Made by a program: the position numbers and the translations under genes. The notes below the pieces were generated by a model, which was not told the DNA's origin, did no database searches, and saw only the letters and a program-made list of their open reading frames with translations. DNA of 64,000 bases, taken from the sequence record PP434423.1; one strand, written 5' to 3'. This document shows positions 3,441 to 62,167 of the stretch, in pieces (positions within the stretch are counted from its first letter, which is position 1; every line of letters begins with the position of its first letter). Source of the DNA: Escherichia phage 236Ecol005PP.

Positions 3441-3636
3441 TTTTCACCTTTTTATTGATATGTCTTTTTCTATAGACGACTTTTTCTCGAGTTTCAAATT
3501 TATTCTTAGCAGTCATAGCTCGAGCCCATAATACAGCCACTTCTTTCGCCTGTAAGTTCAATTCACGAGCAATTTCAATGAATGACTTTCCAGACTCATG
3601 AAGAGTAAACACCACAACCTCAGTTCTCATAATCAA
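3427..3636 (-). CDS. 24.3: hypothetical small DNA-binding-like protein (T4 24.3 position)
   Basis: 69-aa ORF; ORF-track start appears to be TTG, true start may be internal ATG at about 3630. Confidence 0.5.
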   Translation of the reverse strand: MIMRTEVVVFTLHESGKSFIEIARELNLQAKEVAVLWARAMTAKNKFETREKVVYRKRHINKKVKNGTV

Positions 3637-16257: not shown

Positions 16258-16286
16258 ATGGGGACCTTTCGGTCCCCATATTTTTA
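16258..16286. terminator. hairpin terminator between convergent genes 54 and alt.-3
   Basis: GGGGACC-TTTC-GGTCCCC followed by T-run. Confidence 0.6.
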
Positions 16287-16574
16287 TTTACGGAATGAAA
16301 TAAAAGCAGCAACTGAAGCAACTAAACTGTCTTCAATATAAACTTCAATTTTTACCGGAGCTTCTGACTCAAATTTACCTGTTACTACACCTTGGAAAAT
16401 ACTTTCAGTCTGTTCTGGCTTTGAAAAATTTTCAGAAGGAAAAATTCCGAACTTTTTATCTGTTCCAAAAATTTTGATAAATTCATCATAAACTGCTTCA
16501 TTAAAAGCATTATCAGCAGGAATAACGCCTTCAACTACAAGTTCTTGACCTAAAAAGCGCAAAGAAGATTTCAT
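16284..16574 (-). CDS. alt.-3: hypothetical protein (T4 alt.-3 position)
   Basis: 96-aa ORF downstream of an early-type promoter. Confidence 0.55.
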   Translation of the reverse strand: MKSSLRFLGQELVVEGVIPADNAFNEAVYDEFIKIFGTDKKFGIFPSENFSKPEQTESIFQGVVTGKFESEAPVKIEVYIEDSLVASVAAFISFRK

Positions 16575-16582
16575 TTTGTGTT

Positions 16583-16635
16583 CCTCATGTTATGTCAGTA
16601 AGATTACTATAACACAACATGAGGGACTTGTAAAC
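16583..16635 (-). promoter_or_regulatory. T4-type early promoter (GTTTACA, 17 nt, TATAGT) with leader hairpin
   Basis: sequence motif; near-identical copy at 30438-30490 upstream of alc. Confidence 0.55.
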
Positions 16636-16810
16636 TACATTTTGAACTTTTTAGTACGCGTAATAGGCATGCGTCGATTTTATACTGTTTCATTGTTTGA
16701 AGAGCAGTATCAAAAACAGCATTAATGACACCAATTGGATTTCCGCCCAAGTTTTTAAGCTTAACTAATGATAGTTTCTCATTAACACCTATCATTACGA
16801 TATGCATCAT
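16607..16810 (-). CDS. alt.-2: truncated Alt-like fragment (matches Alt residues about 64-120)
   Basis: 67-aa ORF with clear similarity to the alt N-terminal region of this same window. Confidence 0.55.
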   Translation of the reverse strand: MMHIVMIGVNEKLSLVKLKNLGGNPIGVINAVFDTALQTMKQYKIDACLLRVLKSSKCSLQVPHVVL

Positions 16811-19067: not shown

Positions 19068-19075
19068 TATTTATA
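19068..19075 (-). promoter_or_regulatory. late promoter TATAAATA for alt
   Basis: exact motif on minus strand about 21 nt upstream of alt start. Confidence 0.55.
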
Positions 19076-19096
19076 AAATTAAAGGCCCGAAGGCCT

Positions 19097-19285
19097 TTAA
19101 TAATCTAATGGTAAGAGAGTACGATATATTTCAAACTTTGGCCCTTTTTCATAGGCATCAAATGTTTCTGAAAATTTATTATAAGCATATGCATCTACAA
19201 ATTCGAGAATGATTTGTGATACAGAAGTAGAAACATCTCCACCTTCTTTTTGAGCAATGACAATTGTTTCTAAGTAAGCTTTCAT
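19097..19285 (-). CDS. hypothetical protein
   Basis: 62-aa ORF between gene 30 and alt with start overlapping gene 30 stop. Confidence 0.45.
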   Translation of the reverse strand: MKAYLETIVIAQKEGGDVSTSVSQIILEFVDAYAYNKFSETFDAYEKGPKFEIYRTLLPLDY

Positions 19286-23484: not shown

Positions 23485-23817
23485 TTATTTTACTACTTTC
23501 CATTGCTGCATGTCAAGTTTACCAACTTTTTTCATCTTCTCAATTAAGCGTTCGACACGTTGGCGAGCTGTAACATAATACCATTCACCCAATTCATTTT
23601 GTTCAATTTTTCCAACGATTACTGTATTCAATTCATAAATCCAACCAGTAAAGAAATTATGAACTTGAATTGTAAAGGTGAAATCTGTTCCCATACCTTC
23701 TGTTGTTTCTACTTCAATAATATCACCTTCAACTGCCATTAAGAACCACATAGTTTCATCATATTTACCATTGAAGCATTTAATTTTAACTGTAGCGTTC
23801 AGATTAATCGTTTTCAT
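23485..23817 (-). CDS. 30.8: hypothetical protein
   Basis: 110-aa ORF. Confidence 0.55.
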   Translation of the reverse strand: MKTINLNATVKIKCFNGKYDETMWFLMAVEGDIIEVETTEGMGTDFTFTIQVHNFFTGWIYELNTVIVGKIEQNELGEWYYVTARQRVERLIEKMKKVGKLDMQQWKVVK

Positions 23818-23844
23818 TTTATTCTCCTTTGTTTGTGTAAGATA

Positions 23845-23874
23845 ATACTATTACAAAGGAACCATACTGTAAAC
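23845..23874 (-). promoter_or_regulatory. T4-type early promoter
   Basis: GTTTACA, 17 nt, TAGTAT. Confidence 0.4.
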
Positions 23875-29585: not shown

Positions 29586-29935
29586 TTAGAAAGGTCCTGG
29601 ATGTCTTCTGCGAACTTGTTGAAGGAGTTGTTGATTTGTTTTTCAACCAATCCTGGCTTATGAGCCACCACATCCGCCTTCTTTGCGTCTTTGCGCAGTT
29701 TTTCATTTTCACGCTCAATAGCAGCAATTGCCTCACGATTTTTATTATTCATCGCATCAATATAATTATACTGAATTCGCAAATTATTTAATGCTAAAGC
29801 GTTTTCATTGGCCGTTTTTGTAATTTCTACAACAGACGTTTCTAATCTTTCAATTTTACTTTTTAAAATTAAAGAAGTTCCGCCCAATGCAATTACAATT
29901 AATAGCAAGCCTGCTGTCGTATTACTTAATTGCAT
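29582..29935 (-). CDS. i-spanin candidate (N-terminal TMD plus coiled coil)
   Basis: N-terminal hydrophobic helix then charged helical region; 4-nt overlap with the lipoprotein gene. Confidence 0.6.
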   Translation of the reverse strand: MQLSNTTAGLLLIVIALGGTSLILKSKIERLETSVVEITKTANENALALNNLRIQYNYIDAMNNKNREAIAAIERENEKLRKDAKKADVVAHKPGLVEKQINNSFNKFAEDIQDLSK

Positions 29936-30432
29936 AAAGTTTTAATAACCTCTATAATATCGTCTTGAGAAAGACCGTTAATTAAAATATGATGTTCAGC
30001 CGGAGATTTAGAAATTTTAAAGCATGCCTCAACATCTTCTGCCATATCTGATGCGCTACGATTTGGATTACTAATTCCAAGACGATGTTTTCCCGTCAAA
30101 GGATTAACGATGATATAGCATTTACAGTTATTAATATGAACATTAGGTTGAGTCTGATTAATGAACACATCACAATCATATTTCGCAAGCTGATTTTCTA
30201 AAAAGACTTTCATCTCCTCAACTGCATCAGGAAGCATATCACGGGCTTGCTCAAGACGACGATTTCGATATTCTTTAATGGTCGTTTTCCGCTTGACTTG
30301 CTTAGCTAAATCTTTCTTAAGATCGGTGATATATCCAACTCGACGATTTCCTTTAAACACAGAAATCCCATCTGTAGTATCACCGTATGCTTCAACGACC
30401 ATTTCAGTAGTAATAAGCTGTAAATCCATCAT
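29926..30432 (-). CDS. alc: Alc, host transcription termination/unfolding protein
   Basis: 167/168-aa ORF, synteny between spanins and rnlA. Confidence 0.8.
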   Translation of the reverse strand: MMDLQLITTEMVVEAYGDTTDGISVFKGNRRVGYITDLKKDLAKQVKRKTTIKEYRNRRLEQARDMLPDAVEEMKVFLENQLAKYDCDVFINQTQPNVHINNCKCYIIVNPLTGKHRLGISNPNRSASDMAEDVEACFKISKSPAEHHILINGLSQDDIIEVIKTLCN

Positions 30433-30437
30433 AAAGT

Positions 30438-30490
30438 CCTCATGTTATGTCAGTAAGACTACTGTAACACAACACGAGGGACTTGTAAAC
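30438..30490 (-). promoter_or_regulatory. early promoter with leader hairpin upstream of alc
   Basis: GTTTACA, 17 nt, TACAGT; 53-nt element about 94 percent identical to 16583-16635. Confidence 0.5.
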
Positions 30491-30493
30491 AGC

Positions 30494-32081
<1,588 letters not shown>

Positions 32082-38187: not shown

Positions 38188-38441
38188 CATTATGTTCAGA
38201 TAAGGTCGTTAATCTTATCCCGGAATTATATCCAGCTGCATGTCACCATACAGATCAGACTATATCTCCATCTTGATGAAGCAAGATGTCTATCGTTTCG
38301 AGTCACTTGACCCTACTCCCCAAAGGGATAGTCGTTAGGCATTTAGTTCAAAAGAACATTTAGCACGGGATTGTCTACTAGAGAGGTTCCCCGTTTAGAT
38401 AGATTACAAGTATAAGTCACCTTATACTCAGGCCTCAATTA
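38188..38441 (-). ncRNA. group I self-splicing intron in td, lacking any homing-endonuclease ORF
   Basis: starts TAATTGAGGCCTGAG... and ends ...CTGAACATAATG like the T4 td intron core; exon 1 ORF stops at the intron-initial TAA. Confidence 0.85.
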
Positions 38442-38990
38442 ACCCAAGAAAACATCTACACTTCTTTGGTACCATTGTAAATCAAGATAACCATTACGCA
38501 CATTAAACTGATAGAACATATGACAGGGCGGTAATGCCATTTGATTGATTTCAGCTGGATTCCATGCTGAAACGATTTGACGTCGATCAGTTGGTAATTT
38601 TTTAATACGATCAATAGTTTCAACTAATTGATCCACACCACCGAAATCACGCCATTGTTTACCGTATATAGGACCAAGTTCACCACTATGATATCCTAGG
38701 TCTTTAGCCTGGTTTTCATAGTTATCGTCCCAAATAGTTTTACCTTGAATAAGACTACCATGAGTGCGAAGACGTAAATCATTAACATTGGTAGAACCGG
38801 AAATAAACCATAGAAGCTCAGCAATGCAAGCTTTCCAAGCGAGCTTCTTAGTCGTTACTGCAGGAAAACCTTTAGTTAAATCCCAACGTAATTTAGTACC
38901 GAACAAAGCAATTGTTCCTGTGCCTGTTCGGTCATCGGTTTCATAGCCATTTTCAAAAATGTCTTTAATTAAATCTTGGTATTGTTTCAT
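38442..38990 (-). CDS. td: thymidylate synthase, exon 1
   Basis: N-terminal TS sequence including the catalytic PPCH motif. Confidence 0.9.
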
Positions 38991-61284: not shown

Positions 61285-61384
61285 AGTAAGCGTTTAATAC
61301 ATCAATCATTAAAACGATTGGGAATATACTCAAAACTACTAATATTATAACTACATTCCATATAGCTTTAACAATCTTTTTCAT
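61271..61384 (-). CDS. small membrane peptide (ndd.x series)
   Basis: ORF-track ORF trimmed to the ATG with GGAGG RBS (37 aa) downstream of an early promoter. Confidence 0.4.
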   Translation of the reverse strand: MKKIVKAIWNVVIILVVLSIFPIVLMIDVLNAYFGFM

Positions 61385-61412
61385 TTTCTGTTCCTCCGTA
61401 GTTGATAAGGTA

Positions 61413-61442
61413 ATAATACCACAGAGGAACAGTCTTGTAAAC
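61413..61442 (-). promoter_or_regulatory. T4-type early promoter
   Basis: GTTTACA, 17 nt, TGgTATTAT. Confidence 0.45.
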
Positions 61443-62137: not shown

Positions 62138-62167
62138 ATAGTACCACAGTCCTTGTGGTATGTAAAC
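62138..62167 (-). promoter_or_regulatory. T4-type early promoter
   Basis: GTTTACA, 17 nt, TGgTACTAT. Confidence 0.45.

What the first reader, a model, noticed from the sequence alone, without database searches (positions are those of the whole stretch)
16583..16635. Repeated early-promoter plus stem-loop module, copy 1 (upstream of alt.-3)
A 53-nt element reading on the minus strand GTTTACA, 17 nt, TATAGT followed by an imperfect hairpin (CCTCATGTT...AACATGAGG) and an RBS recurs at 30438-30490 upstream of alc with only about 3 mismatches. Dispersed near-identical promoter/stem-loop modules are expected to act as short homology patches for cassette exchange in T4-like genomes. Here one copy overlaps the 3' end of the truncated alt paralog.
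Basis: partly seen in the sequence, partly recalled or inferred. Interest (0 to 1): 0.45.

Follow-up and report, generated by a model that had tools for sequence, protein, structure and literature searches.

The report
Early promoter hidden in RBS-masking hairpin
The repeated 53-base element is a real, genus-wide pair of T4 early-promoter modules; the stretch between the promoter's two boxes can pair with the downstream gene's ribosome-binding site, so probably only RNA started at that promoter is translated. This is a variant of a known T4 design, not an active gene-shuffling site.

Summary
The minus-strand 53-mer at 16635..16583 (before alt.-3) recurs at 30490..30438 (before alc) with exactly 3 mismatches; none is expected by chance. 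The window is a Tequatrovirus, about 97% identical to T4.

The hairpin does not follow the promoter. Its 5' arm lies inside the -35/-10 spacer and its 3' arm is the Shine-Dalgarno sequence. Read-through RNA from upstream therefore masks the ribosome-binding site (12-14 kcal/mol to open). RNA started at the module's own promoter lacks the 5' arm (2-3 kcal/mol).

At alc this design is kept in 8 Tevenvirinae genera with different stem sequences: 11 of 13 pairs show changes on both sides, and 90.5% of cells are paired against 65% in shuffles. At alt.-3, six other genera carry a different promoter with a small hairpin inside the spacer. The Tequatrovirus alt.-3 copy was therefore most likely copied from alc.

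About 500 genomes carry exactly two copies (501 records, 999 matches). All 22 copies inspected sit before alt.-3 or alc. The variable flank upstream of alt.-3 comes from a deletion between 9-bp repeats outside the module.

Closest known: PeSL cassettes, and the RBS-sequestering hairpins of T4 e/soc/49/I-TevI. Promoter activity and the translational effect are inferred, not measured.

The parts
16583..16635 (-). Module copy 1 (upstream of alt.-3): early promoter, hairpin and SD
16629..16634 (-). -35 hexamer TTTACA of copy 1 (GTTTACA with 16635)
16606..16611 (-). -10 hexamer TATAGT of copy 1, preceded by TGT (extended -10); holds the TAG stop of the alt.-2 remnant ORF
16611..16624 (-). 5' arm of the outer helix (CCTCATGTTGTGTT), inside the promoter spacer and therefore upstream of the expected start site
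16583..16596 (-). 3' arm of the outer helix (GACATAACATGAGG), containing the Shine-Dalgarno GAGG of alt.-3
16284..16574 (-). alt.-3 coding sequence (96 aa), the gene served by copy 1
16646..16654 (-). CTAAAAAGT: 9-bp microhomology at the deletion junction that truncated the second alt paralog; it lies outside the module
30438..30490 (-). Module copy 2 (upstream of alc): -35 at 30489..30484, -10 TACAGT at 30466..30461, 5' arm 30479..30466, 3' arm with SD 30451..30438
29926..30432 (-). alc coding sequence, the gene served by copy 2
61382..61442 (-). Module of unrelated sequence but the same architecture, before an ndd.4-like small ORF: 15-bp helix between spacer (CTGTTCCTCTGTGGT) and SD region (ACTACGGAGGAACAG)
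23815..23874 (-). Weaker module of the same architecture before gene 30.8: 9-bp helix TTCCTTTGT / ACAAAGGAG
19068..19075 (-). Late-promoter motif TATAAATA just upstream of alt; a likely source of late read-through RNA into alt.-3

Best explanation
Each copy is a compact intergenic control module that fills the gap between an upstream gene (the alt paralog remnant, or rnlA) and an early gene (alt.-3, or alc). It contains a T4-type early promoter (GTTTACA, 17 nt, TGnTAnnnT). The promoter's spacer doubles as an anti-Shine-Dalgarno sequence.

RNA arriving from upstream promoters carries both arms. It folds into a roughly 20-bp hairpin that buries the SD, so the downstream gene is not translated from that RNA. 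RNA polymerase starting at the module's own promoter begins in the loop, about 7 nt after the -10. That RNA lacks the 5' arm and has an open SD. alc and alt.-3 would then be translated essentially only while their own early promoter fires, however much middle or late transcription reads through.

The two copies are near-identical because the alc module replaced the ancestral alt.-3 promoter once, in the ancestor of Tequatrovirus.

Shown: the repeat, the promoter consensus, hairpin stability, covariation across genera, the copy number, and the cross-genus distribution of promoter types from which the direction of copying is inferred. Inferred: promoter activity and start site, the existence of read-through RNA, and the effect on translation.
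For: - Hairpin stability: read-through RNA folds at dG -23.4 and -28.6 kcal/mol (z -4.5 and -5.3). RNA starting after the -10 is unstructured, -1.6 and -5.0 kcal/mol, z about 0.
- Cost to open the SD-to-AUG stretch: 14.1 and 12.1 kcal/mol in read-through RNA, against 2.4 and 2.9 in own-promoter RNA.
- The same architecture lies upstream of alc in Tequatro-, Dhaka-, Gelderland-, Jiaoda-, Kanagawa-, Karam-, Braga- and Winklervirus, with different stem sequences.
- Cognate spacer/SD duplexes average -19.7 kcal/mol, non-cognate ones -10.6. The true pairing is the best of all 40,320 permutations.
- On a register-fixed alignment, 90.5% of cells pair against 64.7 +/- 3.1 in shuffles (0 of 500 reach it). 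11 of 13 pairs change on both sides. Slid controls give 36-50%.
- The SD is paired with spacer bases in all 13 sequences tested. Tequatrovirus copies carry G-U pairs that favour the sense RNA.
- Two further modules of unrelated sequence in this window (ndd.4-like, 30.8) have the same design. Only 4 of 22 early-promoter-like sites do.
- No terminator-like site lies between the upstream genes and either module. alt has a late promoter motif, and rnlA has a MotA-box-like motif, TGCTTCCA-12 nt-TACTAT (my reading of the sequence).
- The same logic is experimentally established in T4 for genes e, soc, 49 and I-TevI (PMC3014915, section 29).
Against: - No 5'-end mapping, structure probing or translation data for these loci were available to me. 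The promoter rests on consensus and conservation only.
- The alignment used for the pair counts was put in register from each sequence's own predicted fold, which leans towards the structure. Only one offset per sequence was free.
- Mosigvirus, Gaprivervirus, Acinetobacter and Aeromonas relatives lack this design at alc, so it is not indispensable.
- Variation within Tequatrovirus is too sparse to test the helix: 4 of 6 variable outer-stem positions (4 of 7 counting the inner helix) stay paired.
- In T4-type genomes the frameshifted alt.-2 ORF reads through the 5' arm. If it is translated, ribosomes would open the hairpin.
Confidence: 0.6

Rival explanations
1. PeSL-type homology patches: the two near-identical modules exist, or are kept similar, because they serve as recombination sites for inserting, deleting or swapping gene cassettes.
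For: PeSL cassettes have been shown to recombine and to form mini-circles in RB49/phi1, and were reported near indels in PST/T4 (PMC2839356, PMC4122927). One transfer of the module from alc to alt.-3 is implied. The same polymorphisms (positions 15, 16, 32) occur at both loci and many genomes have identical copies, which is compatible with occasional gene conversion. The flank upstream of alt.-3 is variable.
Against: There are 999 matches in 501 records, i.e. two per genome, and none elsewhere in 50,697 phage genomes; all 22 inspected copies precede alt.-3 or alc. The rnlA-alc junction is invariant. The alt-side breakpoint is a 9-bp repeat outside the module. The copies are direct repeats 13.9 kb apart around essential genes. 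This view does not explain why the spacer covaries with the SD across genera.
Confidence: 0.15
2. Transcriptional attenuator, or RNA processing or stability element. The hairpin would stop or pause upstream transcription, the role proposed for PeSL stem-loops. Alternatively it is cut (for example by RNase III), or it protects the 3' end of the upstream mRNA. SD masking would then be secondary.
For: A PeSL stem-loop reduced downstream lacZ expression as strongly as a strong terminator (PMC2839356). The helix is about 20 bp, near the length RNase III accepts (established knowledge). An untranslated downstream cistron would also invite Rho-dependent polarity, so the two effects could combine.
Against: No U-tract follows the stem; the following sequence is AACACAAAAUG or ACUUUAUG. 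The terminator scan finds nothing at either module on either strand. In every genus the 3' arm is specifically the SD, which a pure terminator or stabiliser would not require.
Confidence: 0.15
3. DNA-level element: an inverted repeat across the -10 that acts as a protein operator or extrudes as a cruciform to tune promoter activity.
For: The inverted repeat brackets the -10 box. In genera other than Tequatrovirus the stems are mostly Watson-Crick, so sense and antisense strands fold about equally well.
Against: Arm sequences differ between genera yet always stay complementary to the SD; an operator would conserve sequence, not pairing. Tequatrovirus copies hold 2-3 G-U pairs that are mismatches in DNA and on the other strand: -24.4 kcal/mol for the sense strand against -15.4 for the antisense strand of the consensus.
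Confidence: 0.04

Closest known systems
PeSL (promoter-early stem-loop) cassettes of T4-like phages (Arbiol et al. 2010, PMC2839356; Comeau et al. 2014, PMC4122927)
   Same: A compact intergenic cassette: A/T-rich upstream region, sigma-70-like early promoter (TTTACW-N17-TAYWAT in PST/T4), a stem-loop, then SD and ATG. In RB49/phi1 the stem-loop often lies between the -35 and -10 or overlaps the -10, as it does here. Cassettes recur within a genome.
   Different: Published PeSL stem-loops are read as terminators or attenuators. In the PST/T4 set they are drawn just upstream of the promoter. Here the 3' arm is the SD and there is no terminator signature. PeSLs are many per genome, cluster in hyperplastic regions and sit at indel breakpoints. 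This module has two fixed sites per genome and no breakpoint inside it. I could not see the published PeSL lists (figures are not held), so I cannot say whether these two sites are already listed.
RBS-sequestering hairpins with an internal promoter at T4 genes e, soc, 49 and I-TevI (reviewed in Uzan & Miller 2010, PMC3014915, section 29)
   Same: The SD and/or AUG is buried in a helix in RNA that comes from upstream. A promoter sits within the DNA encoding the 5' arm, so its own RNA lacks that arm and is translated. This is the same two-transcript, one-hairpin logic.
   Different: In the known cases the internal promoter is a late one (TATAAATA), and the hairpin silences early read-through RNA. 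Here the internal promoter is an early sigma-70 type whose spacer is the anti-SD, so the timing is reversed: read-through RNA of any period would be silent and own early RNA active. alc, alt.-3, ndd.4 and 30.8 are not among the examples listed in that review.
Morons and promoter-gene-terminator cassettes of lambdoid phages (as discussed in PMC2839356)
   Same: A self-contained expression unit that makes a gene independent of the surrounding transcription.
   Different: Morons insulate by transcription terminators and move as whole genes. Here the insulation would be translational, and only the roughly 54-nt control module, not a gene, was copied.

Membership tests
PeSL cassette | Sigma-70-like early promoter (-35 TTTACW, 17-nt spacer, -10 TAYWAT for the T4/PST group) | tested here: met
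   TTTACA-17-TATAGT with TG (10 of 12) and TTTACA-17-TACAGT with TG (9 of 12). GTTTACA and TA...T are invariant across 8 genera.
PeSL cassette | Stable stem-loop associated with the promoter | tested here: met
   dG -23.4 and -28.6 kcal/mol, z -4.5 and -5.3. Its position (spacer to SD, enclosing the -10) resembles the RB49-type placement, not the PST/T4 placement upstream of the promoter (PMC2839356, PMC4122927).
PeSL cassette | SD and start codon of the downstream gene at the 3' end | tested here: met
   GAGG lies 11 nt (alt.-3) or 5 nt (alc) before the ATG.
PeSL cassette | Stem-loop acts as a transcription terminator or attenuator | tested here: inconclusive
   No U-tract and no terminator-like hit at either copy. 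Function itself is not testable here.
PeSL cassette | Located at insertion, deletion or replacement breakpoints; mediates exchange or mini-circles | tested here: not met
   999 matches in 501 records, i.e. two per genome, and all 22 inspected copies precede alt.-3 or alc. The alc side is invariant. The alt-side breakpoint is a 9-bp repeat 11-19 nt outside the module. Mini-circles are not testable with these tools.
T4 RBS-sequestering hairpin with internal promoter (e/soc/49/I-TevI type) | SD and/or AUG paired in a stable helix in RNA from upstream | tested here: met
   SD bases pair with spacer bases in 13 of 13 sequences. Opening cost is 12-14 kcal/mol. Covariation across 8 genera. This is prediction plus comparative evidence, not probing.
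T4 RBS-sequestering hairpin with internal promoter (e/soc/49/I-TevI type) | A promoter inside the hairpin DNA, so that its transcript lacks the 5' arm | tested here: met
   The -10 lies between the arms, and the expected start (about 7 nt after the -10) falls in the loop. The promoter class differs (early, not late). The start site is inferred.
T4 RBS-sequestering hairpin with internal promoter (e/soc/49/I-TevI type) | Upstream-initiated transcripts actually read through the site | tested here: inconclusive
   No terminator-like site lies between the upstream gene and the module. A late promoter motif precedes alt and a MotA-box-like motif precedes rnlA. No transcript data.
T4 RBS-sequestering hairpin with internal promoter (e/soc/49/I-TevI type) | Measured reduction of translation from the long RNA | not testable with these tools
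   Needs reporter fusions or ribosome profiling.

The most novel reading that the evidence does not exclude
Tevenvirinae carry a conserved class of self-insulating early-promoter modules in which the -35/-10 spacer is itself the anti-Shine-Dalgarno strand. Translation of the downstream gene (alc in 8 genera; alt.-3, ndd.4 and 30.8 in T4-type phages) is then licensed only on RNA made from that promoter. This would be a timing gate that mirrors the late-gene e/soc/49 hairpins. Because promoter, gate and RBS fit in about 54 nt, the whole gate can be moved to another gene in one short conversion event, as happened from alc to alt.-3.
Probability: 0.5. Interest if true: 0.5.

Novelty: new variant of a known kind. 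Interest (0 to 1): 0.4.

Why it matters
If the gating is real, it gives a simple cis-acting reason why Alc, the host-transcription shut-off factor, and some other early proteins are made only in the first minutes, even though middle and late RNA keeps crossing their genes. It would extend a textbook T4 mechanism from late genes to early genes. It would also show that a promoter spacer can be under selection for an RNA-level function. It cautions against reading every repeated promoter/stem-loop cassette in T4-like genomes as a recombination site: here the repeat reflects one old transplant plus purifying selection. Practically, the roughly 54-nt module is a candidate portable part for making a gene's translation depend on its own promoter.

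Tried and rejected
- Chance repeat: rejected. No match in 100 shuffles.
- Further copies in the window at up to 3 mismatches: none.
- Further copies or other contexts: none in 50,697 phage genomes outside Tequatrovirus, and two matches per genome within it.
- IMG/VR scans anchored on the alt.-3 and alc starts gave only 3 and 2 loci, too few for population analysis.
After filtering, 9 metagenome loci carried the module (16 copies counting loci fetched earlier); every one precedes alt.-3 or alc.
- Intrinsic terminator at the module: none on either strand.
- Known RNA family: no Rfam hit, apart from a meaningless miRNA match at E = 0.36.
- Strand asymmetry as a general test of RNA versus DNA: clear only in Tequatrovirus. 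Other genera have nearly all Watson-Crick stems.
- Within-genus wobble analysis: too few variable sites to be decisive.
- MAFFT alignment of the raw modules (A1) was not in structural register. I replaced it with an N-padded, register-fixed alignment, A2.
- Literature: no held paper describes an RBS-masking hairpin at alc or alt.-3. The Miller 2003 T4 genome review is not held. No T4 start-site maps were found. No supplements are held for the 2014 PeSL paper.

Full report
**Observation.** On the minus strand, the 53-mer GTTTACAAGTCCCTCATGTTGTGTTATAGTAATCTTACTGACATAACATGAGG occupies 16635..16583. It recurs at 30490..30438 with three mismatches. No match appeared in 100 dinucleotide-preserving shuffles.
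- Copy 1 lies between the alt.-2-like remnant ORF (16607..16810) and alt.-3 (16284..16574).
- Copy 2 lies between rnlA (30494..31654) and alc (29926..30432).
- The window is a Tequatrovirus: 99.9% identical to phage Pu-Krd-SF4 and about 97% to T4 in the alt region.
- In the T4 reference genome the two modules are 52/53 identical, so the repeat is a feature of T4 itself.

**Anatomy.** Both copies match a sigma-70/T4-early promoter: TTTACA, 17 nt, then TATAGT or TACAGT, with TG before the -10. In fact:
- The 5' arm (positions 12-25) lies in the spacer.
- The -10 and the expected start site lie in the loops.
- The 3' arm (positions 40-53) ends in the Shine-Dalgarno GAGG.

As RNA carrying both arms, the modules fold at -23.4 and -28.6 kcal/mol (z -4.5 and -5.3). 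RNA beginning after the -10 is no more structured than shuffles. Opening the SD-to-AUG stretch costs 14.1 and 12.1 kcal/mol in read-through RNA, against 2.4 and 2.9 kcal/mol in own-promoter RNA. No terminator-like site exists at either module, and there is no Rfam match.

**Distribution.** A blastn search of 50,697 phage genomes finds the module only in about 500 Tequatrovirus records: 999 matches in 501 records, i.e. two per genome. All 22 instances I could read are followed by either the alt.-3 or the alc start. Many genomes have identical copies. The consensus at both loci is GTTTACAAGTCCCTCGTGTTGTGTTATAGTAGTCTTACTGACATAACATGAGG. Similarity starts exactly at the G of GTTTACA and ends at GAGGA.

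**Comparative test at alc.** I fetched the rnlA-alc intergenic region from other genera.
- In Dhaka-, Gelderland-, Jiaoda-, Kanagawa-, Karam-, Braga- and Winklervirus, the roughly 60-nt gap again holds GTTTACA, a 16-17-nt spacer and a -10. The spacer again pairs with the SD region, but with different sequences, for example TCTCCGTTT/AAACGGAGA, TCCTCATCAG/CTGATGAGGA and ACCTCTCATTTT/AAAATGAGAGGT.
- Cognate spacer/SD duplexes average -19.7 kcal/mol and non-cognate ones -10.6. The true assignment is the best of all 40,320 permutations.
- On a register-fixed alignment, a 13-bp helix has 90.5% of cells paired, against 64.7 +/- 3.1 in shuffles (0 of 500). 11 of 13 pairs change on both sides. Slid controls give 36-50%.
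- Caveat: the register came from each sequence's own fold, although only one offset per sequence was free.
- Mosigvirus, Gaprivervirus, an Acinetobacter phage and an Aeromonas phage lack the design at alc.

**Comparative test at alt.-3.** In Gapriver-, Mosig-, Dhaka-, Gelderland-, Marfa- and Karamvirus, the alt.-3 promoter carries a small hairpin wholly inside the spacer (for example CACATGGATGTG), and the SD is not masked. The SD-masking design is therefore ancestral at alc and derived at alt.-3. The Tequatrovirus alt.-3 module equals the alc module over its whole length, loops included. The most economical reading is one copying event from alc to alt.-3 in the Tequatrovirus ancestor. Both genes already shared GTTTACAAG and ACATGAGGA at the two ends, which could have framed a short conversion tract; that step is inference.

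**Other members in the window.** I scanned the window for early-promoter-like sites and scored spacer/SD pairing against shuffled spacers. Only 4 of 22 sites stand out:
- alc.
- alt.-3.
- A module before an ndd.4-like small ORF (-35 at 61441, 15-bp helix, -23.8 kcal/mol).
- A weaker module before gene 30.8 (-35 at 23873, 9 bp, -11.2 kcal/mol).

The T4 ndd.4 version differs from the window's at three stem positions, and all three changes keep pairing through G-U or Watson-Crick pairs. Several other promoters have hairpins confined to the spacer or spanning only the -10, which is the general PeSL picture.

**Flanks.** The rnlA-alc junction is intact in 494 of 497 relatives. Upstream of alt.-3, only 90 of 502 relatives share the T4 arrangement; most have a full-length second alt gene. 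The T4-type truncation joins ...GTACTAAAAAGT in the N-terminal part of that gene to ...TGTCTAAAAAGTTCAAAATGTAG at its end. It is a deletion between 9-bp direct repeats, 11-19 nt outside the module. The remnant ORF then runs out of frame into the module and stops at the TAG inside the -10.

**Mechanism proposed.** alt is preceded by a late-promoter motif, TATAAATA. rnlA is preceded by a MotA-box-like motif at the right distance from a -10 (my reading). Both upstream genes have late roles: Alt is packaged into the capsid, and gp63 attaches tail fibres (annotation notes). Alc is an early product (PMC2988021). Middle and late RNA should therefore cross both modules, and the hairpin would keep alc and alt.-3 untranslated on that RNA. 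Only RNA from the embedded early promoter would be translated.

This is the logic established for T4 genes e, soc, 49 and I-TevI, where a late promoter sits inside an RBS-sequestering hairpin and translation drops about 100-fold (PMC3014915, section 29). Here the timing is reversed and the promoter is of the early class. That review does not list alc or alt.-3, and I found no held paper that describes this. I could not read the Miller 2003 genome review or the PeSL figures.

The element belongs to the published PeSL concept (PMC2839356, PMC4122927), and one historical transfer is supported. An ongoing role as a homology patch is not supported. Both sites are fixed, no breakpoint lies inside the module, and the copies are direct repeats 13.9 kb apart around essential genes. 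That view also does not explain the spacer-SD covariation.

**Confidence.**

| Claim | Confidence |
|---|---|
| The repeat is real | about 1.0 |
| A conserved RNA helix joins spacer and SD | about 0.9 |
| The embedded promoter is active | about 0.85 |
| Direction of copying was alc to alt.-3 | about 0.8 |
| The helix gates translation as proposed | about 0.6 |

Interest is moderate. It is a new variant of two known T4 themes and makes a cleanly testable prediction, but it is not a new kind of system.

Noticed in passing
window 61382-61442 (-): An early-promoter module of unrelated sequence, before an ndd.4-like 37-aa membrane ORF, has a perfect 15-bp helix between the promoter spacer and the SD (GGAGG). 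The T4 homolog (about NC_000866 166806) differs by three changes that all keep pairing. Comeau 2014 discusses PeSL-mediated exchange of ndd.4/.5 in this region.
   Followed up: partly
window 23815-23874 (-): The early-promoter-like site before gene 30.8 has a 9-bp spacer/SD helix (TTCCTTTGT/ACAAAGGAG). Opening cost is 9.9 kcal/mol in read-through RNA against 0.2 in own-promoter RNA.
   Followed up: partly
window, -35 hexamers at 62166, 40292, 27042, 23481 (all - strand): Other early-promoter-like sites carry hairpins confined to the spacer (e.g. UACCACAAGGACUGUGGUA) or spanning only the -10. They do not touch the SD. These look like the general PeSL stem-loops.
   Followed up: no
L010-L015 about 340-400; L005 about 340-400: Outside Tequatrovirus, alt.-3 promoters (and the Mosigvirus alc promoter) keep a small hairpin inside the spacer with a GGA-containing loop and compensatory stem changes (GCAC..GTGC, CACAT..ATGTG, CATCC..GGATG, CACC..GGTG). 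Its role is unknown.
   Followed up: partly
window 16646-16654 (-); L003 about 1788-1796 and 3481-3489: The T4-type truncated alt paralog (alt.-1/alt.-2) arose by a roughly 1.7-kb deletion between two CTAAAAAGT repeats inside a full-length second alt gene. Most Tequatroviruses still have that gene.
   Followed up: yes
window 16607-16635 (-): The frameshifted tail of the alt.-2 remnant ORF is read through the 5' arm of the hairpin and stops at the TAG in the -10. If it is translated, ribosomes would open the hairpin and could couple alt.-3 translation to it. In genomes with a full-length paralog the stop lies just before the -35 instead.
   Followed up: no
window 19068-19100 (-): A GC-rich hairpin with a T-run (AAAGGCCTTCGGGCCTTTAATTTT) is followed immediately by the late-promoter motif TATAAATA, about 20 nt before the alt start.
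   Followed up: no
window about 31640-31675 (-): A MotA-box-like TGCTTCCA lies 12 nt before TACTAT upstream of rnlA. It is a candidate middle promoter that would send read-through RNA into alc.
   Followed up: no
window 16258-16279: A symmetric 9-bp GC-rich hairpin sits between the convergent genes alt.-3 and 54. The scan scored it terminator-like on both strands; a clear T-run follows it on the + strand only.
   Followed up: no
window 38236-38451 (-): Rfam group I intron hit (72.7 bits, E 1.6e-16). I did not check which gene hosts it.
   Followed up: no
L004 1-400 (phage VR7): This Gaprivervirus has an extra alc-like ORF between rnlA and alc. It is preceded by a terminator-type hairpin (GGGG..CCCC plus T-run) that overlaps a -35-like TGTACA.
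   Followed up: no
window 16284-16574 (-): alt.-3 is non-essential in T4, and C-terminal extension mutants of it escape the CmdTAC defence system (PMC11618068). The timing and level of its expression may therefore matter for defence evasion.
   Followed up: no
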